In this document: in pieces, positions 3,867-26,682 of the stretch
Numbering within the stretch: the stretch's first letter is position 1
Layout of the letters: each line of letters begins with the position of its first letter
DNA from: an uncultured Desulfurococcales archaeon
GTDB taxonomy: Archaea > Thermoproteota > Thermoprotei_A > EX4484-217-1
Assembly: GCA_964564025.1 (NCBI GenBank)
Contig: CAZLZO010000002.1
Location: 15,936-79,935, forward strand
Direction of reading: 5' to 3'
DNA length: 64,000 nucleotides
The notes under the pieces: generated by a model
Told to the model about the DNA's origin: nothing
What the model saw: only the letters and a program-made list of their open reading frames with translations
The model's database searches: none
Made by a program: the position numbers and the translations under genes

Positions 3867-4186
3867 ATCTTTAAAATGTTATATACTGATGTTTGAAAGC
3901 ACTATTGAAATATTTTCATTCTATAATTACGAGTTACTTGCTATTCTCTTCAAGTTTAAAGAAAGAACTTACTCTAACCTCTGTAAAATTTTCTTACTCG
4001 TTATGGATTCTAGTGAATTAGCTAAGTTAAAAGTCCCCATGTAATGATAATTGTAGTCATGGCTAAGAAAATGTTGAGTTTTAATGGGAGCATCATGGTT
4101 CTAATTACAGCATCTTTACCTCCATTAGAGGCTTATATGAAATATAAGAGAAGAGCTATAAACTTGTAATGTAACTAAAAAGTTAT

Positions 4187-5020
4187 TTGAAGGAGAGTTT
4201 AATGAGCAGTAATATAGTAAATGATCTATTAGCTCTTATTTTAAAGTCCTTAACAAAGGGAGTAGCTCAGGAAAGCGTAGACGACTTTATTGCGAAAATA
4301 AATAGAATTATTGAAAACACGAACTACTCCTGGGTAAAGGTTTTTGCTGCGGAAACACTTGATGAAGTTTATGGTGGATTAAATGAATTATCAGCTAAGT
4401 ACTATTACCTTTTTTCACAAGATATCTTAAGGATAATGCAGGCATTGATCATAGCTTGGTTTGAAGATAAAAGAGGCTTCTTTAGAGAGAATATTAACCC
4501 TATAATTTTAGCTGAAGCTATTGAAAGATTTATGATTTCAATTAAAGGGCTTGAAAGCAGCGAAACATATACCGTACTAGGTAATGTGTTTAAAAAGATC
4601 ATTGAGAATTTAGATAAAAAGACATATGGCCGCGTTTGGCATGACTTATGGAGAAAAGCTGAAAAACATTATTTAAAAGCTTTAAGCATTAATAGGGGGA
4701 ATCATGAAGCCCTTGAGGGATTAGGTGATCTTTACTTTATGAAGGAAAATTATGAGAAAGCGCTAAATTATTACATGCAAGCTGCTATTTTATTCAAAGA
4801 GAACCCTAGAATATGGGCAAAAATAGGTTATATTTTCGATAAACAGGGAAGGGTGGATAAAGCATTAGAGGCTTATGAAGAATCGTTTAAGCTAGAAAAG
4901 AGAAGAGATGTTGCAAAAAGGCTCTATGAAATTTATTTATCCAAAGGTTTAAAAGAGAAAGCAAAGGACTTAGAGAAATACTTGAGTACTGAAAGTTCTT
5001 CTTCAAGTGTTAAAGCATGA
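4187..5020 (+). CDS. TPR-repeat protein
   Basis: The C-terminal half has tandem 34-residue repeats with the TPR signature (..ALEGLGDLYFMKENYEKALNYYMQAAILF...WAKIGYIFDKQGRVDKALEAYEESFKL). Confidence 0.55.
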   Translation: MKESLMSSNIVNDLLALILKSLTKGVAQESVDDFIAKINRIIENTNYSWVKVFAAETLDEVYGGLNELSAKYYYLFSQDILRIMQALIIAWFEDKRGFFRENINPIILAEAIERFMISIKGLESSETYTVLGNVFKKIIENLDKKTYGRVWHDLWRKAEKHYLKALSINRGNHEALEGLGDLYFMKENYEKALNYYMQAAILFKENPRIWAKIGYIFDKQGRVDKALEAYEESFKLEKRRDVAKRLYEIYLSKGLKEKAKDLEKYLSTESSSSSVKA

Positions 5021-5403
5021 GAAAAAAGAATATGAAAAATAGAGTTGAAGGAGGAGTAATTGCTTTCATAGGTTACATACTCTCTCCATTATCATGGTGG
5101 AATGATGTTTTCGTTAACATACCCATATCCTACATTTTATCAAGCCTAACTATTCTCCTTCTTCCAAGAGACTATTTTCCAATACTTTTCATAATTTATT
5201 ATAACTTTACTAATGTCCTAGGATTTATATTAATGCATTTAGGGACGGAAAGGGCTATTAAAGGAGGAGGTATTAATTTGTCTAAGAAAACAGTGGTGAA
5301 GTATGTTGTTGTGTCAGTATTTTATACAGCATTGGTCTACATACTTTCAATACTTGGTTTCTTGGAACCTATACAGGAAATAGTTTCTACGCTAAATTAT
5401 TAG
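5017..5403 (+). CDS. Small membrane protein (3-4 TM)
   Basis: ATGA start/stop overlap with the upstream TPR gene. Contains hydrophobic helices. Confidence 0.4.
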   Translation: MRKKNMKNRVEGGVIAFIGYILSPLSWWNDVFVNIPISYILSSLTILLLPRDYFPILFIIYYNFTNVLGFILMHLGTERAIKGGGINLSKKTVVKYVVVSVFYTALVYILSILGFLEPIQEIVSTLNY

Positions 5404-5743
5404 CTGTAAAATGCTTAACGAGAAGAGGGTAATATTTAATGAGTTTAAGAGCGGCCTCGCTATTTACCTTGTGTAGTTCATTGAGAATAAGCCAGGCTTC
5501 TCTAATTTTATTGTCAAAGAATTTTATTATGAAAATGTCAACATTACGCTTACTTACATCTAATAATTTCTTCATAGTTTCTTCATGAACGTCTTTTTCG
5601 TAAATCAGTAATGCCGTATTGGCGGAATACTCTGTTTCAGAACTTTTACCGATAATTCTTTCCACTTTATGGACAGCTTCCTCTAAGGTAATTTCTTCGA
5701 AATTTAGTGTTATTAGTGTTAGGTGAATAAATGTTCTTAACAT
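5387..5743 (-). CDS. Hypothetical protein
   Basis: 118-aa ORF, tightly packed with the downstream DUF457 gene (1-nt overlap). Confidence 0.35.
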   Translation of the reverse strand: MLRTFIHLTLITLNFEEITLEEAVHKVERIIGKSSETEYSANTALLIYEKDVHEETMKKLLDVSKRNVDIFIIKFFDNKIREAWLILNELHKVNSEAALKLIKYYPLLVKHFTANNLA

Positions 5744-6195
5744 TAAATGCCACCCTTAAATATTATGTAAATGTAAGTTAGAGAGAAAAAAACACCCATT
5801 AGTGAAACTACATAGTTAAGGTAAGGATTATCGTATCTTTCCTTGAGAAAACTTATTCTTCGCGTTGTAAAGGGCCATAAAAATGCGACACCAGTTTTAG
5901 TTAAAGTATCCAATAGGATATGTGTAAAAAACCCTATGGTGAAGCTTAAGATCGATACTTCAACGTATTCTCCAATATTAATAAAGAACTTTAATATGAA
6001 AAATAAAACAGCTGTTGCAATAGTTAATGCGAAAACATTATGTAGAAATACTCTATGTCTAAATCTTATATCCATATCGGGAAATACGCTACCTAATGCT
6101 GAGAAGAATATTGCAAAAACCATCTTTTCTATTGATGGTGTTAAGAGAAAAAGAGCCGAACCTATTCCGAAAATTACATGAGTAATTCTTTTCAA
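5743..6195 (-). CDS. Membrane-bound metal-dependent hydrolase (DUF457/YdjM-like)
   Basis: 150 aa with 4 TM helices and conserved His/Asp (FPDMD..H..H....H.LLD), as in the LexA-regulated inner-membrane hydrolase family. Confidence 0.5.
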   Translation of the reverse strand: MKRITHVIFGIGSALFLLTPSIEKMVFAIFFSALGSVFPDMDIRFRHRVFLHNVFALTIATAVLFFILKFFINIGEYVEVSILSFTIGFFTHILLDTLTKTGVAFLWPFTTRRISFLKERYDNPYLNYVVSLMGVFFSLTYIYIIFKGGI

Positions 6196-6441
6196 TATGC
6201 ATCATCTTAATCTTTATAGTCTTTTGTGTTAATGCCTCGGGACGCGGCCTCTTTTAATCACCAACTTTCATTTTTCATGCCAGGCATTCCTCATCGGCTA
6301 ATATTTTGCTTAGTTCTAGATGGAAAATAAAGGTTACCTATTAACAGTGAATTACCTTAATAGTGGAGTGAACAAGTAAAAATATTTTAGGAAACTAGAC
6401 TATGTCATCTTAAGAGGAAAGTTTAGTTAGGCTGTTTATTT

Positions 6442-9009
6442 ATGATCTTTGAGATTATTCCTTGGTATCTTTACAGACCTGATGCAGTAGAAGTTTGGCG
6501 TAATGAAAGTGTTAAACGTAGATTATGGTGGTACTATCGTGTCATGAAGGATGTGAAGCCGGCTAAATTCATGATAGCTAAGCGTATTGAAGTAAATGAA
6601 GATCCTAAGAAATTAGATTATGATGGATTATGGAATTTACATAATGAAGTAGCAAAAGTTTTTAGAGAAGTTTTCAATAAAATAGAAGAAAACAAATTAG
6701 ATTTTGAAGAGCTACCTAAACCTAAAATCAATTTCTTGGATGTAAAAATAGCGATTGTAAATGAAATGCTTAAGGAATGCATATTTTGTGAGAGAAAATG
6801 TAAAGTTAATAGAGCTAAGGGCGAGAAAGGCTACTTCTGCAAGCTCGATTACAGAACATATGCTCACTCATGGTTTCATCATTTAGGAGAAGAATCGCCT
6901 CTCGTGCCAAGTGGCACAATATTTTATGGATCATGCAACTTCAAGTGTGTATTCTGCTTGGACGAAGATGATTACTTGCTAGTAAGAATTAATAAAATTA
7001 TTTCAATTAAGAAAGTAAAGGAAGTTGCGAAAACATTAAAAGAGGCTAGAGAAGTAGAGGTTCTAACATTAAGTGGATGGAGAAAAATAGATGATATAAT
7101 TTCCAGGGAAACAGACGTAATTTATGAGGTAGTCACTAATAGAGGTAAGAGAGTAAAGCTTACGCCAGAACATATAGTAATAGTGCAAAATAATAATGAA
7201 TTAAAGGAAAAATATGCTAAAGATTTAAAAGTAGGAGAGAAACTTATAACTTTACCGTGCATTCTGCTTTCCAAAGAATCTATTATTGAAAACAGTATTA
7301 GTGCAATAAATTTAATTGAAGAATTTGATCGAAAACTACCATGTGATCTGAAAGAAAAAATTAGGGTAAAAAATGTTAATAAGGCTTTACGAAAACTGCA
7401 TAAGAAATATAACATTAGTTTTAAGGAATTATTTACCAAAGCTGGTATAAAGAATTTCAAGTATTATTGGCTCCGTATAGATTCTATTCCATTACCAGAG
7501 TTTATTAAACTGTACAGAAAGTACTATAGCGAATTAAGCAAGTATAACGAGACATATATGTTGTCCATGAAGAAGGGAGTAAAATACTACATACCCGCTT
7601 TAATTAATATATCTAAAGAGCTCATGAGACTTTTGGGATACTTTATAGCCGAAGGTAACTATCTTAGAGAGCACGGACTAGTTTTTACAACATCAAATAG
7701 GCGTATCCAACAAGATATTTTACATTGCATAAAATCCATTATTCCCAATTTAGACGGAATAAAATTACTCTACAACTATAGAGGAAAAACGCCTCAAATA
7801 ATAGTGCCAAGCAGATTACTATACATATTATTTAGATATGTTTTAAATATAGGGAGAAAAGCCCATAATAAAAGCATTCCATGGATTGTTTTTAATGTAA
7901 GTAAGACTTTCTTAAAGGAGTTCCTTTCTGCCTATTTAACAGGAGACGGAACATTAAGCATAGGGAAAAAAGGAGTGTTTTACATAAGATTCGTAACAAC
8001 ATCTGAACGGATGGCTTATGAATTAAGCTACATATTGGGATTAAACGGTGTCCAATATAGAATTAAAGAGAGATTACCTTCTGTAAAATATGTCCTTCCT
8101 ACAGGTCATGTAAGCAAGCATAAACAATTCTGGATAGATATTAATGGTACATTTGATATACTCAAATTAACCGAAATTGCAATATTTCTTGACGATAGAA
8201 AAGAAAAAATGTTTAAAAAACTGGGCTTAACAAAAAAGATGAAGAAAGTAAGGAAGGCAGACTATGTAAAAGAAGTAAGGGTAATTAGAAGGAGAAAGAA
8301 AGTTTACGATATAGTCTTAAGAGCTTCAAATAATGTTCTTGACGAACACGTATTCTTTGCAGGTAATGGCATATTAATACATAACTGTCAAAACTATGAT
8401 ATTAGTCAAGAAAACATTTATGGTGGTGTTGTCGTAACTCCAGAGTCGTTAGCTCTTATTCAGAAGGAGCTAAGAGTGAAGGGAGCTAAAAATATAAATC
8501 ATGTAGGTGGAGATCCTACGCCAAATTTACACACCATCGTAAACTCACTGAAATTTCTTGATGTAAATGTCCCGCAGCTATGGAACAGCAATATGTACTT
8601 GACTAATGAAGCAATGGATATCCTAGTTGATTTAATTGACATATGGCTTCCAGATTTTAAATATGGTAATAATAAATGTGCTTTAATGCTTTCAAGTGCA
8701 CCACGATACTTTGAAGTTGTTACTAGAAACTTAAAGGCAGCTATTAAATATGGAGACATGATAATTAGGCATCTTGTGTTACCTAATCATTTAGAGTGCT
8801 GCACGAAACCCATTCTTAAATGGATTGCCGAAAATTTGCCTAAAGACAAAGTTTTAGTGAATATTATGGGACAGTATAGGCCGGAGTTTAAAGTCTTAAG
8901 AACACCTGAAAAATGGCCTGACATAACTAGGAGACCCACTTACGAGGAAATGGCTGAAGCATACGATTATGCTAGAAGACTTGGCATAGTTTTCGAGCCT
9001 GTAAGCTAA
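6442..9009 (+). CDS. PflX-type radical SAM enzyme (pyruvate formate-lyase activating enzyme-like, COG1313-like) interrupted by an in-frame intein
   Basis: N-terminal Cys cluster CIFCERKC...YFC. The radical SAM motif C165-NFK-C169-VF-C172 reads CNFKCVFCQNYDIS once the intein is removed. The mature extein is about 378 aa, typical for PflX. Confidence 0.8.
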   Translation: MIFEIIPWYLYRPDAVEVWRNESVKRRLWWYYRVMKDVKPAKFMIAKRIEVNEDPKKLDYDGLWNLHNEVAKVFREVFNKIEENKLDFEELPKPKINFLDVKIAIVNEMLKECIFCERKCKVNRAKGEKGYFCKLDYRTYAHSWFHHLGEESPLVPSGTIFYGSCNFKCVFCLDEDDYLLVRINKIISIKKVKEVAKTLKEAREVEVLTLSGWRKIDDIISRETDVIYEVVTNRGKRVKLTPEHIVIVQNNNELKEKYAKDLKVGEKLITLPCILLSKESIIENSISAINLIEEFDRKLPCDLKEKIRVKNVNKALRKLHKKYNISFKELFTKAGIKNFKYYWLRIDSIPLPEFIKLYRKYYSELSKYNETYMLSMKKGVKYYIPALINISKELMRLLGYFIAEGNYLREHGLVFTTSNRRIQQDILHCIKSIIPNLDGIKLLYNYRGKTPQIIVPSRLLYILFRYVLNIGRKAHNKSIPWIVFNVSKTFLKEFLSAYLTGDGTLSIGKKGVFYIRFVTTSERMAYELSYILGLNGVQYRIKERLPSVKYVLPTGHVSKHKQFWIDINGTFDILKLTEIAIFLDDRKEKMFKKLGLTKKMKKVRKADYVKEVRVIRRRKKVYDIVLRASNNVLDEHVFFAGNGILIHNCQNYDISQENIYGGVVVTPESLALIQKELRVKGAKNINHVGGDPTPNLHTIVNSLKFLDVNVPQLWNSNMYLTNEAMDILVDLIDIWLPDFKYGNNKCALMLSSAPRYFEVVTRNLKAAIKYGDMIIRHLVLPNHLECCTKPILKWIAENLPKDKVLVNIMGQYRPEFKVLRTPEKWPDITRRPTYEEMAEAYDYARRLGIVFEPVS
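6955..8385 (+). mobile_element. Intein (477 aa) with a LAGLIDADG homing-endonuclease domain
   Basis: Begins with Cys (CLDEDDYLLVRI, block A). Block B is TPEHIV. The LAGLIDADG motifs are LLGYFIAEGNY and FLSAYLTGDGTLS. It ends ...GILIHN followed by a +1 Cys (CQNYD). Confidence 0.8.
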
Positions 9010-9248
9010 ATTTTCTTAGCCTTTCTCTTAAATTCCTCCCTAAGTCTACTTTTGAATTCTTCAACAGTATCTTCAACGGCACTTCTAATTAAATCAAAAC
9101 TTATTTTATGCAGTAAAGCGTTAAAGAATTTTAAAGCACATGCTTTGCTATGAAATGTTAGCGTATAGTCTCCTAAAGTAAGTACTATTCCTTGCCCCTC
9201 AGGGAATGCTTTTCCACAAACAATGCATACATGTTTTTTCCCAGGCAT
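9006..9248 (-). CDS. Small metal-binding protein (TRASH/YHS-like CxxC...HxxxC)
   Basis: 80 aa. HVCIVCGK...FHSKAC followed by a charged helical tail. Confidence 0.35.
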   Translation of the reverse strand: MPGKKHVCIVCGKAFPEGQGIVLTLGDYTLTFHSKACALKFFNALLHKISFDLIRSAVEDTVEEFKSRLREEFKRKAKKI

Positions 9249-9373
9249 TTAACTACACCTCATTTTAGCTGTTATACGAAAATATTTTTTAGTTGTAGTG
9301 CCTTATGCGTTTAGGCTACAAATCCATGCTAAAATGCCGTATAAAAGCATAGCGTAACATGAGGAACTAAGCA

Positions 9374-12223
9374 ATGTTTGAAGATTCAGCTATAAGCATA
9401 GAGAATCCGAAGATAGTAGAGTTACTTAGGGAGAAGGGGTGGAGAGAGCTTACAACACCTCAAAAACTTGCTATTCCTAAGATAAAGGAGGGATATAATG
9501 TACTAATAATAGCACCAACAGGTTATGGTAAAACCGAAGCAGCAATTCTTCCTGTTTTCGAAAAAATGATTGAGGAGAAAGCGGAACCTGTTGCCGTAGT
9601 TTACATAACTCCTTTAAGAGCATTGATAAATGATATAACTAGAAGGTTAAGGTGGTGGGGTTCTAGACTAGGTTTCACTGTTGCTAGAAAGCATGGTGAT
9701 GTTCCATCATCTGAGAAAGCTAAGAGATTAAGGAAGGCACCACATGTCATAGTTACAACGCCTGAAAGTTTAGAAATAGATCTTGACTGGGCTCAGAAGT
9801 TTAGAAGCTACTATAGGAATGTTAAATGGGTTATCGTAGATGAGGTCCATGAGCTAATTTCGTCTAAAAGAGGAATTCAGCTTATTCTACTATTAGAGAG
9901 GCTTCGGAAACTTACAAACTATGATTTTCAAAGAATAGGTCTTTCAGCGACTATAGGGGATCCTGAGAAAGTAGCGAAATTCCTATTTGGATCTTCAAAG
10001 AGGAAAAGCGTTATAATTGAAATTGGCAGAAGCAAGAAGACAATAATAGAAGTTGATGCCGTACAGTCTAAAAGCGATGATGATTTATGGGAACAGGTAG
10101 CTAAAACAATAATAGAGCACATTGAGCCTCCAAGCCTAATCTTCGTAAACTCCAGGTCAACTGCAGAAAGACTGCATGAATACTTGGAGAAGACGGGATT
10201 AAAGGAGATCCAAGTTCATCACTCTTCGGTTTCTAGAAACATAAGGGTAACTGTTGAGAAAGATCTTCTCGAAGGCAAGCTTAAAGGTGTTGTTTGCACA
10301 AAAACCCTTGAACTAGGTATCGACATAGGCGATATAAAGAAGGTTATTCAATTTAGACCTCCAGGTTCAGTAACTACGCTCCTTCAGAGGGTAGGGAGAA
10401 GTGGCCATAAATTCTACGATGTATCTAAGGGAGCAATTATAGGTTTAAATGAAGTTGATATTTTAGAAACTTTAGCTACAATCTCTTTAGCATTAAGGAA
10501 CGAACTTGAAGAACCACAAATATTAGAAAAACCTCTTGATGTTTTAGCTAGAGAAATTTTGGGTATAGTTCTTCAATATGGGGAAGTTGATGCTGAAATG
10601 ATTTATGAAATAATATCTAAAGCTTATGCTTACAAAACACTTAGCTTCGATGAGCTTACAAAGCTACTAAAATACATGGAGGCTAATGGCTTACTCTCCA
10701 AAGTAGATAATTCAAAATATAAAATAGGTCCAACATTCTTTAAAATATGGAGATTTGATACTGACACAGCTTTTAGAAGATGGTGGGCTAGAAGTTTTAC
10801 AGAGTTCTTTACCACAATAGGTGAAAGACCTTCGTTTCAGGTAAAGCATGGTGACATAATAGTAGGTGATGTTGATTCACAATATGTTTATAGATACTTA
10901 AGAGTTGGAGACGTTGTTAGACTCTCGGGAAGAAACTGGAAGATCGTTGACGTTGATGATATTAGCATGAAAATTTCAGTTATACCTGCTTCTACAGAAG
11001 AAGCGGAAGTACCTATATGGAGAGGAGAGGGAGCTAGACGTTCTAAGAAAATATCCTATGAGGTGGGGAGATTACTTCATAAAGTAGTTAATGGAGGTAA
11101 ATTAGACTTACCAGAGAATGTTAAAGTGTTCAATTCAGCAATCTTTTACATAAGCAAGCTGTATAAGGCATATAGGGGTAAGGAAGATTTACTACCTGAT
11201 GAAAAAACTATGGTGATTGAAAAACATGGTGATGAAACAGTTTTCCTCTTCTGGATGGGTCAAAATATAGCTGAAACTCTTGCACACATCATAATGTACC
11301 TTATATCAACTAAGTACACATTAAATGTTTATGTAAAGTCATCGTATGTAGGCTTTTCAGTAAGAGTAAGAAATATTGATCCAGTGAAGATATTATTGGA
11401 TGTAACACCTAGTAAAGTTGAAAGACTTGTTGAATTGTCCCTTGAGCGTTCTCCATTATACTACGCTATTTTGAAGGAACTTCAAGTAAGCTTTGGAAAG
11501 ATAGGTAAATTGGATCCTGAGAAAGACTCATTAATTATAGAAGAGGCTAAGAGGCAAGTAAAGTCACAATACATGGATGTTGAAGGGGCGAAGGAGCTTT
11601 TAAGAAAAATACATAGTGGAGAGATAAACCTAGTTTATGCTAGAAACGTCGAAACTCCCTTAGGGAAGTATGTTAAAGAATTACCGCCAATAAGGCCATG
11701 GATTAAGGACGCATCTCTTCTAATAGTTGAAACTCTCGAAAATATGGCATTAACTGTCGATGAACTTTCAGAAATCCTTGAATTACCATCTAAAACCATA
11801 GAAAATAAGCTTAAGGACCTAAGAAAACCTGATGTTGTTGATAGAGTGTTTCAATTTATTGATATAGATATTGGTGAGTGGAGATGGGCTTTAATTAAGG
11901 ATGCTAAAAAGATTTATGAATCACCGGAATATAGACAGTCTTTCGAACCATACGATGTCGACGAAGTCTACACATTATATATAAAGCCTATTAACGGGCT
12001 GTCATATTTCACATTGTACTTTTCGGCTAGAGAGATAATTTCGAATTTTAAGAAGTTTCTAGAGAGGGTCCCGGTTAGCGAAGCTTACGAGGTTAGAGTT
12101 ATACCATCAGATTCTATGCTTAAAACATTAACGCCAAGATACTTTTATGTACCTAAGAACATAATACCTTATGTTGCCTTAAACGGAATAACTTATATGC
12201 AAATGCTGAAAAGGTCGAGTTAG
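9374..12223 (+). CDS. lhr: Lhr-type (large helicase-related) superfamily 2 DEVH-box helicase
   Basis: Motif I APTGYGKTEAA, ITPLRAL, motif II DEVHEL, then SAT and VNSRSTAERL. 949 aa with a long C-terminal Lhr-core-like extension. Confidence 0.8.
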   Translation: MFEDSAISIENPKIVELLREKGWRELTTPQKLAIPKIKEGYNVLIIAPTGYGKTEAAILPVFEKMIEEKAEPVAVVYITPLRALINDITRRLRWWGSRLGFTVARKHGDVPSSEKAKRLRKAPHVIVTTPESLEIDLDWAQKFRSYYRNVKWVIVDEVHELISSKRGIQLILLLERLRKLTNYDFQRIGLSATIGDPEKVAKFLFGSSKRKSVIIEIGRSKKTIIEVDAVQSKSDDDLWEQVAKTIIEHIEPPSLIFVNSRSTAERLHEYLEKTGLKEIQVHHSSVSRNIRVTVEKDLLEGKLKGVVCTKTLELGIDIGDIKKVIQFRPPGSVTTLLQRVGRSGHKFYDVSKGAIIGLNEVDILETLATISLALRNELEEPQILEKPLDVLAREILGIVLQYGEVDAEMIYEIISKAYAYKTLSFDELTKLLKYMEANGLLSKVDNSKYKIGPTFFKIWRFDTDTAFRRWWARSFTEFFTTIGERPSFQVKHGDIIVGDVDSQYVYRYLRVGDVVRLSGRNWKIVDVDDISMKISVIPASTEEAEVPIWRGEGARRSKKISYEVGRLLHKVVNGGKLDLPENVKVFNSAIFYISKLYKAYRGKEDLLPDEKTMVIEKHGDETVFLFWMGQNIAETLAHIIMYLISTKYTLNVYVKSSYVGFSVRVRNIDPVKILLDVTPSKVERLVELSLERSPLYYAILKELQVSFGKIGKLDPEKDSLIIEEAKRQVKSQYMDVEGAKELLRKIHSGEINLVYARNVETPLGKYVKELPPIRPWIKDASLLIVETLENMALTVDELSEILELPSKTIENKLKDLRKPDVVDRVFQFIDIDIGEWRWALIKDAKKIYESPEYRQSFEPYDVDEVYTLYIKPINGLSYFTLYFSAREIISNFKKFLERVPVSEAYEVRVIPSDSMLKTLTPRYFYVPKNIIPYVALNGITYMQMLKRSS

Positions 12224-14455: not shown

Positions 14456-17400
14456 TTATGTTTCAACTTTAGCTTTTTCAGCATGAACTCTAACATACGG
14501 CTTGTTAAGCATCGTTAAAAGGTCTCTCAATACTTCAATGTAATTTAACTTACCCTTCTCTATAAGATTCATGGTCTCTTCAAGCTTTCTTGTGGTTTCC
14601 TCTGAAACAAGGTGCTTATAGTTTTTGTTAAGATATTCATATACTTTAATACCTAGAGTTGTTGGAACTAAATACTTGTTCTTACTTTCTATTACGTAAC
14701 CGTGCTTAAGTATGGAGGATAATATTTTAGCGTAAGTTGAAGGCCTACCTATTCCTCTATCTTTCATTAATTTAATTACGTCTCCCTGCCTATACAGGGA
14801 ATTTAATGAACCTTTCCACATTTTACAATCAACTATTCTTATTACTGATCCTTTGTTTACATTATTTAAGCTTAATACTTGCTGTATTGGAAGAATCTTG
14901 AGAAATCCTTCTTCAACGACTTTGCTTATAAACTCTACAGTCTTGGCATCCTCTCCGATCTTAACCGTTAACCTTACCTTTTCAACTATAGCAGATTTCA
15001 TTTGACTTGCAATAAATCTTCTGAATATGAGGTCATATACTTTGAAATGCGTATAAGTGAAGTTTGCAAAGGTCCTTAACGTTCCATTTAGTAAGAGTTT
15101 TTTAAGAGTTTCAGCATCATAGGGTTTTGTAGGCCTAATGCATTCATGTGTTCCTTCGGCACCCCAGTTTCTTAACTTTATAAGGTCATTACACTTTAAC
15201 GTATTGAATATGTATTCTTTAGCTACTTCAAACCCTGCGTTTGAAACATGCGTGCTATCTGTTCTATGGTATGTTATAAAGCCTGATTCAAAGAGGTCTT
15301 GAAGAACCCTCATAGCAAATTGAGCGTCTAATCTGTATTTACTAGTGAGCTCTGAAAGTAGAGTATTCGTTGTGTAAGGGGGTGGTGGGTTTATTTTCTC
15401 AATAAATGTCGTTTTTATTAAGATTAACGCGCCGTTTTTAACGTATTCTTTAATTAATGATTTATCAAAGTAAACATCATAATCAAATCTTACTTTTAAT
15501 CCGCCTTCTAAAATGTACTCGGCGAAGAGTCTTCTTGAGGCTTTCCATTTTTTGTGTTGTTTTATTATCCATCCTAGTACTGGTGTTTGTACTCTTCCTG
15601 CTGATAGCCAGTGTTTTCCGAAAACACCCCAAAGCCTCCTTGAAAGCTCAAAACCAATCCAACGATCCTCAACACGCCTAACAACCTGAGCCTCAACAAG
15701 AAACCTATCTATTTTTCGCGGGTTCGCTAAAGCCTTTATTATAGCCTTCCTCGTTATTTCGTGGAATTCTATTCTGAAAATGTTTTTTACGTAGGGTTTA
15801 AGTAGTAGCATGACGTCCCATGCTATTTTCTCACCTTCACTGTCAGGATCTGTTCCAATAAATACCATGTCAACTTCTTGAGCAAGCTTTCTTAGGGTAT
15901 CTATAATGCTTTTCGAATCAAATATTTTTGTTGAGCCGCATTTTGGACAAACAACGCTATTTAACGTATATTGATGGCCGCATTCTCTACATTTCTTTAT
16001 TGTAGTATATATGGGAGCTATAGTGTCGGAGTCTACAAGTACACCAAAATACCCCATGGTTGATGATGTTGTTAAGTCAAGTATGTGTCCTTTAGTAGCA
16101 ACTATAGATAACATGTAATCTTTTGATCCCAGCTTAGGATCTCCTACAAGTACTTCATAAACTACTACTCCATTTATTCTTCTTTTCGATGGTTTACCGA
16201 AGAAGTAGGCTATGGTTCTGGCTTTTGTTGGAGATTCAACAACAAATAAAGCGGGGATAATAGGGTCTTGGTATTTTGCTTCAATCTCTCCTCTCAATAT
16301 TTTTCTAATAACTTCCCTGTCTCTATCTATTTCATGAAGAATCTTGCTTAAATTGATTTCATCAAATTTCTTTATTTCAAAACTATCGATATAATACCTC
16401 AATTGCTTAATTAATTTCTTAAACACCTTTTCATCATCAACCAATATTATGCTAAGACCCTTCGTCATTCCGTTTGCAAACATTCTAGATGTTCTACCGC
16501 TAGCTTGAATATACGTCATAACATCCGGTGAGACTATGTAAGTTTTACCTTTAAATTCCCTAAGAATTAATAACTGTGATTTCTTCAGTTTATCCCTAAT
16601 AATTGAATCCGATATTTTGTTAAGAATGAATTTTTTTGCTTCAAGTATTATTTGCAAGAGCTTACCTAGGTACCCTTTAAGCTCTATGTTCTCGCTTATT
16701 GCTCTCCTTAGTATCTTTAATTCTTTAAAGCTAATTTTATCTAATGATTTTGATAGAATGTTAATGGTCTTCCTTATATATTTCAGTTCATCCTCGTTTT
16801 CAACAGCTTCTTCTAATGCTGTTAAGAGAACAATTATCTTTACAGGATTATTCAATCCCTTTTCTAATTCTATTTGAAACTTAGGAACCCCTAAGAAAAT
16901 AGCGTATCTTATTCTATCAGGTATGTCTATTCCTCTAACTATTACGCCATAGTAATTTGCGATGCCTACTAGTATGTCGGTTTTTCCTTCAACAAATCTT
17001 TTAATATAACCATGTCGTGAGGATGAAGCAAGCTCAGCTTTTATGCCGTTTTCCCTTAATTTTTCTACTAGCTTCCTAGCTTCCTTAACCCCTAGATCTT
17101 GAGATACGAATATTAATCCTCCATTTCCCAGCTTCTTAATTAATGAAATTACTTGTTTTACATAGTCTTTCTCTAAGGGCATGTATGTGTCTACAACGTT
17201 TCTCATATACTCTATTACTGTTCCAGCTTCGAACTTTAGAAGTTCTTTAAACATCTTAGCTTTAAGACCTTTACTTCTACCAGTAGCGCTGCATACAAGT
17301 ATTTGCCCTAATTTTGTTTCTTTAACATATTTTTCGATTTCCGCTTTATATTCTCTTATTTTTTCCCTTATCCTAGCTATTTTGTTTTCATTAGAGCCTG

Positions 17401-18163
17401 AAATTACAAGTTTAAAGAAGTCTATTTTACTTACTATGAGCTTGTATGCTATCTCAAGTATTCTATCATTAAATCCTATGAGCTTTAAAATTCTGTCTAT
17501 ATTTCTAGAGTTCCTAAGTAAAGCATCAACATCATCAACTATTATTAGCGAGAATCTATATGTTCCTATTTTTGCAAAGTTTTTTGAAAGATAAGCTGAT
17601 GTGGTTATGAGTAATTGGAAATTTCCAGTTTCCAGAAGATCTTCATTAATTATACCTGGTGAGCAAATGTTTAAGGTGATGCCAAGTTTGGAAACAAACT
17701 CCAAAGCTTTCTTCGTGACTTGGTCTTGAAGATTTTTCGTGGGAACTATGATGTATGCTCGGCTTTTACTTTTAAATGCATGGTATAGTGCATAAATTAT
17801 GGAAAACGTTGTTTTACCAACTCCCGTAGGAGCTATGATGGCAAAGCTTTCACCTTTCAAAAGCCTTTTAGCCCAAGTTCTTTGAGCACTCCAAGGCTTC
17901 TTTCCAGAAGCTTTACTAAAGAATACTTCGAACTCCTTAATGCTTCTTTCAATATTTAAAATTTCTTTGTAACCATAAAGTTTTTTTCTCGTTAAAAGAT
18001 TAATGTAGACATTTTCTTTTAAGGATAATTTATCTAATTTAACATGTTCTAAACCATTTAGGCAAACTCTACATGGAAGACCCTTTATTAGTCTCTCAGT
18101 ATCTATGAAACCCCCACAATTAGGGCAAGCATGTTCTATAATAGCGTAAGGCAAAATCGCCAC
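14456..18163 (-). CDS. rgy: Reverse gyrase
   Basis: 1235 aa. N-terminal zinc ribbon (CPNCGG...CRVC), helicase motifs (APTGVGKTT, DDVD) and a C-terminal type IA topoisomerase domain. GTG start. No intein (normal length). Confidence 0.95.
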   Translation of the reverse strand: MAILPYAIIEHACPNCGGFIDTERLIKGLPCRVCLNGLEHVKLDKLSLKENVYINLLTRKKLYGYKEILNIERSIKEFEVFFSKASGKKPWSAQRTWAKRLLKGESFAIIAPTGVGKTTFSIIYALYHAFKSKSRAYIIVPTKNLQDQVTKKALEFVSKLGITLNICSPGIINEDLLETGNFQLLITTSAYLSKNFAKIGTYRFSLIIVDDVDALLRNSRNIDRILKLIGFNDRILEIAYKLIVSKIDFFKLVISGSNENKIARIREKIREYKAEIEKYVKETKLGQILVCSATGRSKGLKAKMFKELLKFEAGTVIEYMRNVVDTYMPLEKDYVKQVISLIKKLGNGGLIFVSQDLGVKEARKLVEKLRENGIKAELASSSRHGYIKRFVEGKTDILVGIANYYGVIVRGIDIPDRIRYAIFLGVPKFQIELEKGLNNPVKIIVLLTALEEAVENEDELKYIRKTINILSKSLDKISFKELKILRRAISENIELKGYLGKLLQIILEAKKFILNKISDSIIRDKLKKSQLLILREFKGKTYIVSPDVMTYIQASGRTSRMFANGMTKGLSIILVDDEKVFKKLIKQLRYYIDSFEIKKFDEINLSKILHEIDRDREVIRKILRGEIEAKYQDPIIPALFVVESPTKARTIAYFFGKPSKRRINGVVVYEVLVGDPKLGSKDYMLSIVATKGHILDLTTSSTMGYFGVLVDSDTIAPIYTTIKKCRECGHQYTLNSVVCPKCGSTKIFDSKSIIDTLRKLAQEVDMVFIGTDPDSEGEKIAWDVMLLLKPYVKNIFRIEFHEITRKAIIKALANPRKIDRFLVEAQVVRRVEDRWIGFELSRRLWGVFGKHWLSAGRVQTPVLGWIIKQHKKWKASRRLFAEYILEGGLKVRFDYDVYFDKSLIKEYVKNGALILIKTTFIEKINPPPPYTTNTLLSELTSKYRLDAQFAMRVLQDLFESGFITYHRTDSTHVSNAGFEVAKEYIFNTLKCNDLIKLRNWGAEGTHECIRPTKPYDAETLKKLLLNGTLRTFANFTYTHFKVYDLIFRRFIASQMKSAIVEKVRLTVKIGEDAKTVEFISKVVEEGFLKILPIQQVLSLNNVNKGSVIRIVDCKMWKGSLNSLYRQGDVIKLMKDRGIGRPSTYAKILSSILKHGYVIESKNKYLVPTTLGIKVYEYLNKNYKHLVSEETTRKLEETMNLIEKGKLNYIEVLRDLLTMLNKPYVRVHAEKAKVET

Positions 18164-24493: not shown

Positions 24494-25060
24494 ATGATTA
24501 AAGTAATGGTTGAGCCAAAGTTTAACTTAATAGTTTCAGCATATGCTCTTAGAGAGGAAGCAGCAATTGAGGAACTTACACAGTATGTAGGGGGTCTTTA
24601 TGTTGTTTGGAAGCAGAGATCGCTTATTCTTGTAAGAACAACTAAGATGAATCCTTATGAAGCTATTAAAGTTATTAGAAAAGAAATAGACCCTTACCAT
24701 ACCAATATTTTACGCATAGTGCCTGTAGACATAGTTTATTCACCGTTTCTTGAAGATGTAGCGAAGATCGTTTGGGATCTTGCAAAAGAGAAAATAGGTG
24801 AAAATGAAACATTCAGAATAACTCTTGAAGGACATTTGCTTAAACTTACTGAGGAAGGTAAGGCTGTTGAAGCAAGATCTAGGGAGGCAATAGATTATTT
24901 AGCTAAAAACATTGACCGTAAAGTTAACCTGACAAAACCCGATAAAATAGTTTACATAAAAGTTGTTAGAGTTGCTGGGAAACCGTACTCAGCAATAGCA
25001 ATATGTAAGCCTGAAGACATATTGTCAACTCAAAAAATGATTCTTCATAAGAGAGATTAG
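24494..25060 (+). CDS. THUMP-domain RNA-binding protein (Tan1-like)
   Basis: About 188 aa. The C-terminal ETFRITLEG...VNLTKPDKIVYIKVVRVAGKPYSAIAI fits a THUMP fold. A likely alternative start lies at 24506, where GGAG sits 9 nt upstream. Confidence 0.45.
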   Translation: MIKVMVEPKFNLIVSAYALREEAAIEELTQYVGGLYVVWKQRSLILVRTTKMNPYEAIKVIRKEIDPYHTNILRIVPVDIVYSPFLEDVAKIVWDLAKEKIGENETFRITLEGHLLKLTEEGKAVEARSREAIDYLAKNIDRKVNLTKPDKIVYIKVVRVAGKPYSAIAICKPEDILSTQKMILHKRD

Positions 25061-26682
25061 TACATAAAGTCGCTAAGATCTATGCTTTTTCTTTTCCTTG
25101 ACTGATAAACTTCAGAAGTACCTCTCACAATAATCTCATATAGCCTAGCTTCTTTGCCTTTAGAGGGCCTTAAAAGTCTACCAAGTCTCTGAATAAACTG
25201 TCTTCGCGATCCTGTTCCAGTAACTATAATTCCTACATTAGCGTCAGGTATGTCTAAGCCTTCGTCTCCTACTGTTGTAACAACTAAAACCCTTTCAATA
25301 CTCTCTCTAAAGTTTTCTAATATTTTTCTTCGAACCTTTGTTTTAACCTCACCTACAAGTATAGGTGCATTGAGAAGTTTCCCAAGCTCTTTTGCTTGAT
25401 CAACATACTGTGTGAAAACTATGATTTTACTTCCACGTTTAAGCTCTTTTTCAACAATGTTCTTAACAGCTTTTTTCTTAGCTTCAGCCTTATGAACTAT
25501 TTGCCTTAATTTGCTATGGACCTTTAATGCCATCTGGGCTTTTTCATCACCTCTCTTAGCTAATTCTAAGAGCTCTTCAAACTTTTTTCCTCCACTTAAT
25601 TCTTTGTAAAGCTTTAATGTTTCAAAGTATTCTTTAAGTTCTTTAGGGGTTAAGTCAACTTCTACTTGATAAATAACATATGGCGCTAAATAACCTTGTA
25701 CTGAAAGCTCAGATGGTGTTTTGTGATAAGCAATTCCTCCCATTAAAGGAAATAGTTCCTCATGCTTACCATCTTCTCTAATAACTGTTGCTGAAAGCCC
25801 CATTCTCTTAAGAGAAAACATGTTTAAGGCAATATGCTTAAACTTCTCGGATGGGAGGTGATGACATTCATCGATTATTAGAAACGAGAAGTATTTAGAG
25901 AGAATCTTAACTTTCCTATATGCTGTTTGATACGTTGAAATGGTTATTGGAGCTATTCTTTTTTCTTCACTATAATATAACCCTACGATGTTAGGGTTTA
26001 CTGAAGTAAACCTGGTTATCATATCTTTCCATTGAAACATTTGTTCTTTAGTATATGTTACTATGAGTGTTCTTTCAGAAAGCTTAGCTAAGGCAGCAAT
26101 GGCAATTACTGTTTTCCCTGAACCTGTTGGTAAAGCTATTATTCCTTTCATACCTTTCTCGAACCATTTGTCAAGAGCTTCTTTTTGATAATCACGTAAC
26201 TTCCCATTAAAATTAATTTTATATGGGAGTTTTAATTCTTCAGAAACACCCGTATTATCAATTATATTGTAACCTAAGTTTTCTAATGTTTTCTTAAGCT
26301 CGAAGAAATGTAGGGGTTTTACTATGAATACCTTTCTTACTCTATCGTAAATAGTGTAGTCTCTAATGTACTGGTAGTCGCTTCCAAAGTATACTTTACT
26401 TTTCAAAACTACGTCGTCACCGTACCATTCCAGGTATACTGTTTTTCTTTCAATAAGCTTCCTCTTCAAGATGTTTAAGCTTTCCTTATCTATTTCGGCT
26501 TCAGCTTCTTCCAAAGCTTCTAATATGTCGTAGAAGTCAAGGTTGTTTTCACGTATTTTAGTGAAGTTTATAGAGAATTTTGAACCTCTTTCAACATCTC
26601 TACCCAAATAATCCGAGAACATAGAGATTTTTCGGAAAAGTTCCTGGTCAATCCATTTCTTGATGTAAAAGTATATTGACAT
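25057..26682 (-). CDS. xpb: XPB (ERCC3/Rad25) DNA repair helicase
   Basis: Walker A LPTGSGKT, DECHHLP, an SF2 C-terminal helicase domain and the archaeal XPB RED/thumb architecture. 541 aa. Confidence 0.85.
   Translation of the reverse strand: MSIYFYIKKWIDQELFRKISMFSDYLGRDVERGSKFSINFTKIRENNLDFYDILEALEEAEAEIDKESLNILKRKLIERKTVYLEWYGDDVVLKSKVYFGSDYQYIRDYTIYDRVRKVFIVKPLHFFELKKTLENLGYNIIDNTGVSEELKLPYKINFNGKLRDYQKEALDKWFEKGMKGIIALPTGSGKTVIAIAALAKLSERTLIVTYTKEQMFQWKDMITRFTSVNPNIVGLYYSEEKRIAPITISTYQTAYRKVKILSKYFSFLIIDECHHLPSEKFKHIALNMFSLKRMGLSATVIREDGKHEELFPLMGGIAYHKTPSELSVQGYLAPYVIYQVEVDLTPKELKEYFETLKLYKELSGGKKFEELLELAKRGDEKAQMALKVHSKLRQIVHKAEAKKKAVKNIVEKELKRGSKIIVFTQYVDQAKELGKLLNAPILVGEVKTKVRRKILENFRESIERVLVVTTVGDEGLDIPDANVGIIVTGTGSRRQFIQRLGRLLRPSKGKEARLYEIIVRGTSEVYQSRKRKSIDLSDFMY

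What the first reader, a model, noticed from the sequence alone, without database searches (positions are those of the whole stretch)
6955..8385. LAGLIDADG intein inserted at the third Cys of the radical SAM CX3CX2C motif of a PflX-type enzyme
The 855-aa ORF resolves into a PflX-like radical SAM extein of about 378 aa plus a 477-aa intein. The intein begins at Cys172 (CLDEDDY..). It has a TPEH block B and two LAGLIDADG motifs. It ends HN, followed by a +1 Cys that restores the motif as CNFKCVFCQNYDIS. The insertion therefore splits the [4Fe-4S]-ligating motif itself. The enzyme can only bind its cluster after splicing, and the intein's nucleophilic Cys1 sits exactly where the third cluster ligand would be. 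I cannot tell from memory whether a PflX-family intein allele is catalogued.
Basis: partly seen in the sequence, partly recalled or inferred. Interest (0 to 1): 0.7.

Follow-up and report, generated by a model that had tools for sequence, protein, structure and literature searches.

The report
Intein splitting a radical SAM motif
A self-splicing, mobile protein insert (an intein with its own DNA-cutting enzyme) sits exactly at the third iron-binding cysteine of a radical SAM enzyme in an uncultured heat-loving archaeon. It is real and looks recently mobile, but inteins at this same spot are already known in other radical SAM enzymes.

Summary
ORF 6442..9009(+) encodes 855 aa: a 378-aa radical SAM extein interrupted by a 477-aa class-1 LAGLIDADG intein (nt 6955-8385). 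The intein begins at Cys172 (CLDEDD) and ends HN, followed by Cys649.

The in-silico spliced extein matches intein-free homologues of the same 378-aa length (76-79% identity, 100% coverage). A fully syntenic metagenome contig carries the empty site with no indel.

Pfam intein and LAGLIDADG models pass their cut-offs. The intein model matches PI-PkoII, PI-PfuI and PI-SceI. The spliced extein model matches pyruvate formate-lyase activating enzyme.

The host is an uncultured Desulfurococcales archaeon. Five other species-level Desulfurococcales genome assemblies carry the same allele.

It is not a new kind of thing. Related inteins occupy the same third-Cys position in four other groups:
- AmmeMemoRadiSam enzymes
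- tetraether lipid synthase Tes, for which NCBI curates a model (NF045703)
- B12-binding radical SAM proteins
- SPASM radical SAM proteins

The P. abyssi MoaA intein is a published Cys-3/Cys1 redox trap.

One addition: against a near-identical genome, the intein differs at 0.49% of bases, the exteins at 2.8% and the flanks at about 5%. That pattern indicates recent homing.

Verdict: a real intein and a new member of a known kind, of moderate interest.

The parts
6442..9009 (+). Whole precursor ORF: 855 aa plus stop, predicted 100.4 kDa
   Evidence: The identical protein is found on three independent metagenome contigs, and its 90% cluster holds 4 members from NCBI, JGI, ENA and Logan.
6442..6954 (+). 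N-extein, aa 1-171 (N-terminal helical domain plus the start of the radical SAM core)
   Evidence: Colinear with 378-aa intein-free homologues.
6778..6840 (+). N-terminal Cys motif CIFCERKCKVNRAKGEKGYFC (C113, C116, C120, C133). Probably an auxiliary metal or cluster site; role not tested.
   Evidence: All four Cys are invariant in 42 homologues. A similar CX2CX3C...C motif is seen in the AmmeMemoRadiSam proteins P0125 and P0126.
6934..6954 (+). CNFKCVF: first two cysteines (C165, C169) of the radical SAM CX3CX2C motif. These are residues -7 and -3 relative to the intein.
   Evidence: It is the only CX3CX2C in any ORF of at least 150 aa in the window.
6955..8385 (+). Intein: 477 aa, 56.0 kDa, class 1 (Cys1 ... 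His-Asn), with a LAGLIDADG homing endonuclease domain
   Evidence: Pfam PF14890 and PF14528 pass their cut-offs. AF2 model pLDDT 86.2, pTM 0.87. Best PDB matches are PI-PkoII 2cw7 (E 1.3e-24), the Tli and Pho VMA inteins, PI-PfuI and PI-SceI. GC is 30.8% against 35.5% for the extein.
6955..6984 (+). Intein block A. Cys1 (= Cys172) is the nucleophile for the N-S acyl shift.
   Evidence: C1 and D3 are invariant in 7 related inteins.
7144..7185 (+). Intein block B (GKRVKLTPEHIVIV; Thr70, His73)
   Evidence: H73 is invariant.
7621..7662 (+). LAGLIDADG motif 1 (LMRLLGYFIAEGNY); catalytic Glu233 retained
   Evidence: The acidic residue is lost in relative P0122 (FIAGGSY), so retention here is informative.
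7909..7956 (+). LAGLIDADG motif 2 (FLKEFLSAYLTGDGTL); catalytic Asp331 retained
   Evidence: (PF14528 at aa 491-544). It is degenerate in P0122 (LTYNG) and P0126 (FTTAAT).
8302..8361 (+). Intein block F (VYDIVL...DEHVFFA; Asp452, His465)
   Evidence: V450, Y451, D452, H465 and F467 are invariant.
8362..8385 (+). Intein block G (GNGILIHN; penultimate His476, terminal Asn477)
   Evidence: G470, G472, L474, H476 and N477 are invariant.
8386..8388 (+). +1 Cys (Cys649). It is the second splicing nucleophile and, after ligation to Phe171, the third [4Fe-4S] ligand of the mature CNFKCVFC motif.
   Evidence: The column is invariant as C172 of the spliced protein.
8386..9009 (+). C-extein, aa 649-855 plus stop (the rest of the radical SAM barrel)
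   Evidence: Pfam Radical_SAM covers aa 649-794 of the precursor. The spliced model has pLDDT 94.6 and matches PFL-AE 3c8f with TM 0.77 on the target.

Best explanation
This is a genuine, splicing-competent class-1 intein carrying a LAGLIDADG homing endonuclease. It is inserted in frame at the third cysteine of the CX3CX2C [4Fe-4S]/SAM motif of a radical SAM enzyme of unknown substrate. That enzyme has a PFL-activase-like fold and belongs to the family that sources name PflX or 'PFL-activating'. The host is an uncultured hyperthermophilic Desulfurococcales archaeon.

The gene is translated as a 100-kDa precursor. Splicing is expected to follow the standard class-1 path:
1. Cys172 (intein Cys1) undergoes an N-S acyl shift at the Phe171-Cys172 bond.
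2. Cys649 (+1) attacks the thioester.
3. Asn477 cyclises with help from His476 and releases the 56-kDa intein.
4. An S-N shift joins Phe171 to Cys649.

The product is the 44.5-kDa enzyme with the motif CNFKCVFCQNYDIS, in which the +1 Cys is the third cluster ligand.

At the DNA level the element is selfish. Its endonuclease would cut the intein-free allele at the motif-coding sequence and copy the intein in by repair. The conserved motif is a safe and widely shared target, which explains why related inteins sit at the same cysteine in other radical SAM families.

What is shown: the anatomy, the colinearity, the empty site, the conservation of catalytic residues, the folds, the distribution and the divergence trough. 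What is inferred: the splicing chemistry, the endonuclease activity and the homing mechanism.
For: - Exact boundaries and catalytic residues are present.
- Pfam intein and LAGLIDADG models are above their cut-offs.
- The intein model matches solved intein endonucleases.
- The spliced extein equals the length of intein-free homologues at 76-79% identity and keeps every invariant column of the family, so the host gene is under selection and must be rescued by splicing.
- The spliced model has pLDDT 94.6 and its best match is PFL-AE.
- The syntenic empty-site allele L012 has the same neighbours (TPR, DUF7980, a 108-aa gene, YdjM, radical SAM, a 79-aa gene, Lhr). Its extein is 1137 nt, as in the window, 75% identical with no gap.
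- The same allele occurs in five other Desulfurococcales species-level genomes at the identical site.
- The LAGLIDADG acidic residues are intact here but lost in some relatives.
- Against the near-identical genome L002, the intein differs at 7 of 1431 nt (0.49%), the exteins at 32 of 1137 (2.8%) and the flanks at about 5%. Synonymous codon differences are 4 of 477 against 23 of 378 (Fisher p = 1.3e-5). The trough extends into the adjacent extein, as expected for recent homing with co-conversion.
- Reverse gyrase in the window marks a hyperthermophile.
Against: - No experimental evidence of splicing or DNA cleavage exists.
- The NCBIfam short intein-terminus models are below their cut-offs.
- The intein alignment behind the structure model has only 7 sequences.
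- Unusually strong purifying selection on the intein could in principle produce the divergence trough. This is unlikely, because among more distant relatives the intein is less conserved than the extein: 55-58% against 66-76%.
- The function of the host enzyme is unknown.
Confidence: 0.9

Rival explanations
1. The intein has been co-opted as a conditional switch. The precursor still has a contiguous CX3CX2C made of C165, C169 and intein Cys1, and Cys+1 lies nearby. A Cys-3/Cys1 (or Cys1/Cys+1) disulfide, or ligation of an Fe-S cluster by Cys1, would block the first splicing step. The oxygen-labile enzyme would then be matured only under reducing, cluster-replete conditions.
For: - The P. abyssi MoaA intein is reported to form a native Cys-3/Cys1 disulfide that controls splicing, and this is interpreted as protecting an oxygen-sensitive enzyme (PMC3922620; PMC10663303).
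- The Pab PolII intein forms a Cys1/Cys+1 disulfide.
- The window protein has the same Cys-3, Cys1 and Cys+1 geometry.
- All 13 related radical SAM inteins inspected keep Cys at -7, -3, 1 and +1.
Against: - Those cysteines are dictated by the host motif and by intein chemistry, so their presence does not show regulation.
- Most family members, including the closest relatives, lack the intein altogether. That fits a selfish element better than a needed regulator.
- The organism is probably a strict anaerobe, in which disulfide trapping would rarely occur (inference).
- Nothing was tested here.
Confidence: 0.15
2. It is a decaying relic. The intein no longer splices, or the endonuclease is dead, and the host gene is on its way to becoming a pseudogene.
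For: Some relatives show decay. P0082 keeps only a 256-aa remnant with most of the endonuclease domain deleted. P0122 and L007 have lost both LAGLIDADG acidic residues.
Against: - In the window copy every splicing residue and both endonuclease acidic residues are intact.
- The ORF is uninterrupted.
- All family-invariant extein residues are retained.
- The intein is nearly identical between two genomes whose flanks have diverged by about 5%.
Confidence: 0.05
3. It is an assembly artefact: a chimeric contig joining an intein-bearing fragment to an unrelated radical SAM gene.
For: One related database protein (P0128) does look like a chimera of intein-plus and intein-minus alleles, so such artefacts occur in this family.
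Against: - The identical 855-aa protein is on three independent contigs, of which one is 5-10 kb and two are 50-200 kb.
- Near-identical versions occur on 24-kb to 286-kb contigs from JGI, NCBI and ENA.
- The reading frame and both junctions are exact.
Confidence: 0.01

Closest known systems
Intein-containing tetraether lipid synthase Tes (NCBIfam NF045703; e.g. WP_297487288.1, Thermococcus sp. = P0161)
   Same: It is a radical SAM enzyme with a LAGLIDADG intein of about 450 aa inserted at the third Cys of CX3CX2C. The junction is NRCNLACWY|CLPKDEE...GDGVLISN|CFFYAKEG, and P0161 scores 2080 bits against a cut-off of 1700. NF045703 is also the best NCBIfam hit of the window protein. The match spans the motif, the intein and 45 C-extein residues.
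   Different: - The host family differs: Tes is a GDGT synthase with a Zn-ribbon N-terminus, not a PFL-AE-like enzyme.
- The intein is only 32-34% identical and ends Ser-Asn rather than His-Asn.
- The window protein is not a member of the family, at 143.9 bits against 1700.
Pyrococcus abyssi MoaA intein (Callahan et al. 2011, as cited in PMC3922620 and PMC10663303)
   Same: It is an intein in an oxygen-sensitive archaeal radical SAM enzyme, with Cys at -3 and Cys1, the same CXXC geometry as here. It is shown to form a splicing-blocking disulfide.
   Different: - The host enzyme differs.
- I could not obtain the sequence or the primary paper. Whether its CXXC is the radical SAM motif or MoaA's C-terminal auxiliary-cluster motif is therefore unverified.
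- No redox data exist for the window protein.
Related inteins at the same cysteine in AmmeMemoRadiSam (TIGR04337), B12-binding and SPASM radical SAM proteins (metagenomic; P0125, P0126, L008, P0134; P0142, P0158; P0174)
   Same: - The insertion point is identical, and for the AmmeMemoRadiSam hosts the junction has the same C[ILM]D...HN|C form.
- Families were confirmed by models: TIGR04337 at 311 and 324 bits against 220, and B12-binding and SPASM domains.
- For AmmeMemoRadiSam hosts the intein is more similar to the window's (34-42%) than the C-extein is (24-28%).
   Different: The host families differ. None of these is described in the literature I could search. Deep intein phylogeny is unresolved, with NJ bootstrap below 55%, so the number and direction of transfers is unknown.
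PI-PkoII, PI-PfuI, PI-SceI and the Tli/Pho VMA intein homing endonucleases (PDB 2cw7, 1dq3, 1vde, 7qsu, 7qst)
   Same: They share the overall architecture: a HINT splicing domain split by a two-motif LAGLIDADG endonuclease plus an extra helical region. Foldseek gives E 1e-24 to 1e-12. PI-PkoII is the only clear PDB sequence hit, at 3e-9.
   Different: Sequence identity is only 11-17%. The host proteins differ (DNA polymerase, RNR, V-ATPase), and so presumably do the DNA targets.
Pyruvate formate-lyase activating enzyme (PDB 3c8f/3cb8), for the extein
   Same: It is the best structural match of the spliced extein, at E 2e-11 and TM 0.77 on the target. It shares the partial-barrel radical SAM core and the CX3CX2C near the N-terminus of the core.
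   Different: - The window protein has about 135 extra N-terminal residues with an invariant CX2CX3C...C motif.
- Identity is only 15-17%.
- It scores far below the PFLA model, at 21.6 bits against 231.75.
- There is no sequence hit in the PDB.
- The substrate is unknown.

Membership tests
Intein (class 1, HINT superfamily) | HINT splicing domain with blocks A, B, F and G | tested here: met
   PF14890 scores 55-57 bits against a cut-off of 35.8. The blocks are located and conserved in 7 relatives. The fold matches solved inteins. The short models TIGR01445 and TIGR01443 are below their cut-offs.
Intein (class 1, HINT superfamily) | Nucleophile (Cys/Ser/Thr) at position 1; His-Asn at the C-terminus; Cys/Ser/Thr at +1 | tested here: met
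   Cys172, His647-Asn648 (intein His476-Asn477) and Cys649.
Intein (class 1, HINT superfamily) | In-frame insertion in a conserved host protein whose homologues lack it; its removal restores colinearity | tested here: met
   The 378-aa spliced product matches 378-aa homologues at 100% coverage. The syntenic empty site has an 1137-nt extein with no gap.
Intein (class 1, HINT superfamily) | Protein splicing actually occurs | not testable with these tools
   Needs expression and SDS-PAGE or MS. Predicted masses are 100.4 kDa for the precursor, giving 44.5 kDa plus 56.0 kDa.
LAGLIDADG homing endonuclease (two-motif, intein-borne) | Two LAGLIDADG helices, each ending in a catalytic acidic residue, in an alpha-beta-beta-alpha-beta-beta-alpha pseudo-dimer | tested here: met
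   PF14528 scores 40-43 bits against 22.5. Glu233 and Asp331 are present. The fold matches PI-PkoII, I-OnuI and I-DmoI.
LAGLIDADG homing endonuclease (two-motif, intein-borne) | Site-specific cleavage of the intein-free allele | not testable with these tools
   Indirect support only: a presence/absence polymorphism at a syntenic locus and a divergence trough over the intein.
Radical SAM superfamily | CX3CX2C cluster motif and a partial TIM-barrel core | tested here: met
   PF04055 scores 56.9 bits against 29.5 on the spliced protein. The motif is restored as CNFKCVFC. The model has pLDDT 94.6 and matches PFL-AE, viperin and QueE.
PflX / COG1313 (PFL-activase homologue of unknown function) | Match to the COG1313 profile | not tested
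   None of the available libraries holds a COG model. Support is indirect. JGI names P0124 'PflX'; its C-extein is 50% identical to the window's. Homologues at 57-60% identity are named 'putative pyruvate formate lyase activating enzyme'.
Glycyl-radical enzyme activases (PFLA TIGR02493, PFLE_PFLC TIGR02494, NrdG) | Score above the family cut-off | tested here: not met
   PFLA scores 21.6 against 231.75, PFLE_PFLC 14 against 174, and NrdG2 24.9 against 131. The fold resembles them but the protein is not a member.
AmmeMemoRadiSam system radical SAM enzyme (TIGR04337) | Score above the family cut-off | tested here: not met
   It scores 16.9 bits against 220. In contrast, the spliced P0125 and P0126 score 311 and 324 bits.
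Tes, intein-containing (NF045703) | Score above the family cut-off over the full length | tested here: not met
   It scores 143.9 bits against 1700. The match is limited to the motif, the intein and 45 C-extein residues.

The most novel reading that the evidence does not exclude
The third cysteine of the radical SAM motif may act as a shared landing pad, with one intein lineage hopping between paralogous radical SAM families. The junction F|CQ(N/D)(W/Y)D(I/L) resembles the one in the anaerobic ribonucleotide reductase NrdD, so hopping may extend to and from NrdD.

In the precursor, intein Cys1 completes a CX3CX2C. Fe-S cluster loading or the thiol redox state could therefore gate splicing, which would make these inteins built-in maturation checkpoints for oxygen-labile radical enzymes.
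Probability: 0.15. Interest if true: 0.6.

Novelty: new member of a known kind. Interest (0 to 1): 0.35.

Why it matters
It adds a new host family, the PflX-like PFL-activase-fold radical SAM enzymes of Desulfurococcales, to the inteins that split the radical SAM cluster motif.

The allele comes with useful natural controls:
- an empty-site allele at a syntenic locus
- degenerate and shortened variants
- sister inteins at the same cysteine in AmmeMemoRadiSam, Tes, B12-binding and SPASM radical SAM enzymes

The intein's own nucleophile stands in for a cluster ligand in the precursor. The protein is therefore a compact test case for whether Fe-S loading or redox state controls splicing, as proposed for Pab MoaA. 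The divergence trough also gives a clean example of recent homing in uncultured hyperthermophiles.

For annotation, NCBI has a special model only for the Tes case. PflX-like and AmmeMemoRadiSam alleles currently carry no name, or only generic or partial ones.

Tried and rejected
- Primary papers on the Pab MoaA redox trap (Callahan 2011 and 2013) are not held. The exact MoaA insertion site therefore stays unverified, and I do not claim it is the radical SAM motif.
- Literature searches for intein plus 'tetraether lipid synthase' and intein plus 'pyruvate formate lyase activating' returned nothing. The search for intein plus 'radical SAM' gave 25 papers, none apparently about a motif-splitting intein, judging from titles, abstract openings and term-in-context checks of two of them. 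The search for 'PflX' returned only unrelated uses of the string.
- A PDB sequence search with the spliced extein found no hit, so a fold search was used instead.
- AmmeMemoRadiSam, PFLA, NrdG and Tes membership of the extein were all tested and rejected on score.
- I looked for other inteins or radical SAM genes in the window and found none. No intein domain appears in the nine large ORFs scanned, and there is only one CX3CX2C in ORFs of at least 150 aa.
- An NJ tree of 29 inteins was meant to count cross-family transfers. The first run timed out. The second gave deep nodes with 26-52% bootstrap, so I make no claim about the order or number of invasions.
- The extein search did not list the window's own cluster and showed only one intein-bearing homologue among the 120 listed. 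It cannot be used to estimate how frequent the intein is in the family.
Neither could reach P. abyssi MoaA or change the verdict.
Full report
**What is in the sequence**

The window holds one long ORF at 6442..9009 on the + strand, 855 aa. Translation shows ...FYGSCNFKCVF|CLDEDDYLLV... at residues 161-181 and ...FAGNGILIHN|CQNYDISQENIY... at 639-660. Cutting at Cys172 and after Asn648 gives a 477-aa insert (nt 6955-8385) and a 378-aa remainder whose junction reads CNFKCVFCQNYDIS.

The insert carries the canonical intein blocks:
- block A, with Cys1: nt 6955-6984
- block B, ...TPEH...: nt 7144-7185
- LAGLIDADG motif 1, LMRLLGYFIAEGNY with Glu233: nt 7621-7662
- LAGLIDADG motif 2, FLKEFLSAYLTGDGTL with Asp331: nt 7909-7956
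- block F, VYDIVL...DEHVFFA: nt 8302-8361
- block G, ending His-Asn: nt 8362-8385

**Is it more than chance?**

On the whole ORF, Pfam finds Intein_splicing (55.3 bits, cut-off 35.8), LAGLIDADG_3 (40.1, cut-off 22.5) and Radical_SAM (49.9, cut-off 29.5). On the spliced protein, Radical_SAM becomes one continuous match at 56.9 bits. The two very short NCBIfam intein-end models are slightly below their cut-offs, which I report as a minor negative.

The in-silico spliced extein, searched against 5.8 billion proteins, finds intein-free proteins of exactly 378 aa at 76-79% identity and 100% coverage (E 1e-214 to 1e-209). It also finds thousands of further homologues of 360-400 aa, including Pyrolobus fumarii and Pyrodictium occultum proteins. 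In a 42-sequence alignment the residues on both sides of the junction (C165, C169, C172, Q173, N174, S178) are invariant. The window protein keeps all 74 invariant columns of the family.

**Empty site**

The contig that encodes the close intein-free homologue P0004 is fully syntenic with the window. Both run TPR protein, DUF7980, a small ORF, YdjM, radical SAM gene, a 79/80-aa gene on the opposite strand, and a 949-aa Lhr helicase (compare). Its radical SAM gene is 1137 nt, the same as the window's two extein parts joined. The two align without any gap at 75% identity, with 60 of 72 bases identical around the junction. This is the classic occupied-site versus empty-site pair.

The intein has lower GC (30.8%) than the extein (35.5%).

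**Folds**

An AlphaFold2 model of the intein reached pLDDT 86.2 and pTM 0.87 from a 7-sequence alignment. Its best matches are solved intein homing endonucleases: PI-PkoII (E 1.3e-24), the Tli and Pho VMA inteins, PI-PfuI and PI-SceI. Free-standing LAGLIDADG enzymes and mini-inteins follow. PI-PkoII is also the only clear PDB hit by sequence.

The spliced extein model (pLDDT 94.6, pTM 0.92) is closest to pyruvate formate-lyase activating enzyme, 3c8f/3cb8, at E 2e-11 and TM 0.77 on the target. By score it belongs to none of the curated activase families, nor to AmmeMemoRadiSam (16.9 bits against 220).

'PflX-type' therefore rests on source names for homologues and on the fold. No COG1313 model was available. 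The family also has an invariant N-terminal CX2CX3C...C motif (nt 6778-6840) of untested role.

**Whose genome, and how widespread**

The identical protein lies on a 190-kb ENA metagenome contig. A scan of one genome per species (GTDB) finds a 99% identical locus in an 'uncultured Desulfurococcales archaeon' MAG. It finds the same intein at the same site of the same gene in five further genomes, all MAGs with no cultured organism among them. Four are labelled Desulfurococcales and one only 'uncultured archaeon'. Intein identity is 42-58%.

Reverse gyrase at 14456-18163(-) indicates a hyperthermophile. None of the other large ORFs has an intein, and no other ORF of at least 150 aa in the window has a CX3CX2C.

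**The insertion point is shared across radical SAM families**

Direct and profile searches with the intein returned relatives whose junctions I read individually. All of the following have the intein's Cys1 as the third Cys of CX3CX2C.

| Host family | Proteins | Junction | Family check |
|---|---|---|---|
| PflX-like | P0121, P0122, P0130, P0082, P0123, P0124, P0169 | as in the window | source names and homology |
| AmmeMemoRadiSam | P0125, P0126, P0134, L008 | as in the window for P0125 and P0126; L008 has CCN at +1; C-terminal junction of partial P0134 not seen | spliced exteins score 311 and 324 bits on TIGR04337, cut-off 220 |
| Tetraether lipid synthase Tes | P0161, P0148, P0225 | NRCNLACWY\|CLPKDEE...GDGVLISN\|CFFYAKEG (P0161) | P0161 = WP_297487288.1 from Thermococcus sp., named 'Tes, intein-containing', 2080 bits on NF045703, cut-off 1700 |
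| B12-binding radical SAM | P0142, P0158 | RGCPARCVY\|CVDG (P0142) | B12-binding domain found in P0142 |
| SPASM radical SAM | P0174 | RACNLNCKH\|CLDY | SPASM domain found |

NF045703 is also the best NCBIfam hit of the window protein. That match covers the motif, the intein and 45 C-extein residues without a shift.

For AmmeMemoRadiSam hosts the intein is more similar to the window's (34-42%) than the C-extein is (24-28%). Within the PflX family the reverse holds, with intein identity of 42-58% against extein identity of 66-76%. This argues for movement of the intein between paralogous families. A neighbour-joining tree left the deep nodes unresolved, at 26-52% bootstrap, so I do not say how often or in which direction.

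The literature adds the P. abyssi MoaA intein. It has a native Cys-3/Cys1 disulfide that blocks splicing until reduced (PMC3922620; PMC10663303). I could not read the primary paper. I therefore cannot say whether that CXXC is the radical SAM motif or MoaA's second cluster motif.

**Evidence of recent mobility**

I aligned the window with the 99% MAG locus. The intein differs at 7 of 1431 bases (0.49%), the two exteins at 32 of 1137 (2.8%), and the flanking 2.4 kb on each side at about 5%. The trough reaches into the last 250 nt of the N-extein and the first tens of bases of the C-extein. The intein-versus-extein contrast is significant (Fisher p = 1.8e-6). Counting only synonymous codon differences gives 4 of 477 against 23 of 378 (p = 1.3e-5).

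Over longer distances the intein evolves faster than the extein. The simplest reading is therefore a recent transfer of the intein between these lineages by homing, with short co-conversion tracts. The two LAGLIDADG acidic residues are intact here, whereas relatives show decay: P0122 and L007 have lost both, and P0082 has lost most of the endonuclease domain. This fits the usual cycle of invasion, fixation and decay.

**Mechanism**

Established intein chemistry predicts an N-S acyl shift at Phe171-Cys172, trans-thioesterification by Cys649, Asn648 cyclisation aided by His647, and an S-N shift forming Phe171-Cys649. The +1 cysteine, not Cys1, becomes the third cluster ligand of the mature 44.5-kDa enzyme, and the 56-kDa intein is released (masses). 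These steps are inferred from the residues. None is shown.

A disulfide (as in Pab MoaA) or even cluster ligation on the precursor could delay splicing. I rate a physiological switch role at about 0.15, because most family members, including a syntenic near relative, do without the intein.

**Verdict**

The element is a real and apparently recently mobile LAGLIDADG intein in a new host family. The kind of event, an intein at the third Cys of the radical SAM motif, is already represented by a curated NCBI family (Tes) and by several uncharacterised families in public data. A related redox-trap case is published.

I could not find this PflX-like allele described in the searchable literature. The window's own protein carries no name in any source.

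Novelty: new member of a known kind. Interest: 0.35.

Noticed in passing
window 3955-11385 compared with L002 (CAYOTT010000001.1): There is a divergence trough centred on the intein: 0.49% nt differences in the intein, 2.5-3.0% in the exteins and about 5% in the flanking genes. The low-divergence tract extends roughly 250 nt into the N-extein. This is the signature of recent homing or gene conversion between two closely related Desulfurococcales populations.
   Followed up: yes
P0128 (605 aa, JGI metagenome): This protein reads as an intein-free N-terminal two-thirds of a divergent PflX-like gene, followed by the C-terminal half of the intein and a second copy of the C-extein. It is either an assembly chimera of co-existing intein-plus and intein-minus alleles or a real rearrangement. 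Either way it hints at polymorphism within that population.
   Followed up: no
P0131-P0139; L009-L011: The closest non-radical-SAM relatives of this intein sit in anaerobic ribonucleotide reductase NrdD at ...RPF|C...HN|CQDWDLRYF. The junction F|CQ(D/N)(W/Y)D(L/I) resembles the radical SAM junction F|CQN(Y/W)DIS at both protein and DNA level, which may have allowed ectopic homing between the two targets. Several of these NrdD proteins carry multiple inteins; P0131, for example, is 2288 aa with 6 matched stretches.
   Followed up: partly
P0141 (1415 aa): This radical SAM protein has an intein at the FIRST cysteine of CX3CX2C (NRC|VTGD...GGLVVSN|CNMACEVC) and a second intein further downstream. 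The motif is therefore hit at more than one position.
   Followed up: no
window 6778-6840 (aa 113-133 of the ORF): An invariant N-terminal CX2CX3CX12C motif lies upstream of the radical SAM core in all 42 aligned homologues. A similar motif is visible in AmmeMemoRadiSam proteins. It is possibly an auxiliary cluster or zinc site, and may mark the two families as sisters.
   Followed up: partly
window 9006-9248 (-), and L012 5144-5383 (-): A conserved 79/80-aa gene with CxxC...HSKAC (a zinc-ribbon-like motif) lies immediately downstream, convergent with the radical SAM gene. In the window it overlaps the radical SAM stop codon by 4 nt. Its adjacency is conserved in the intein-free relative. Function unknown.
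   Followed up: no
window 9374-12223 (+), 46589-49423 (+), 14456-18163 (-), 25057-26682 (-), 44688-46502 (-), 54896-56737 (+): The window is rich in DNA-transaction genes: two Lhr-type helicases (949 and 944 aa), reverse gyrase, an XPB-like helicase and two HerA/DUF87 ATPases. None carries an intein, although such genes are frequent intein hosts in other archaea.
   Followed up: partly
window 5843-6181 (+), 7122-7460 (-), 8499-8759 (-): Three mechanical ORFs of 86-112 aa overlap real genes. The first lies antisense to the YdjM-like gene at 5743-6195. The other two lie antisense within the intein and the C-extein. They are low-complexity and probably not genes.
   Followed up: no
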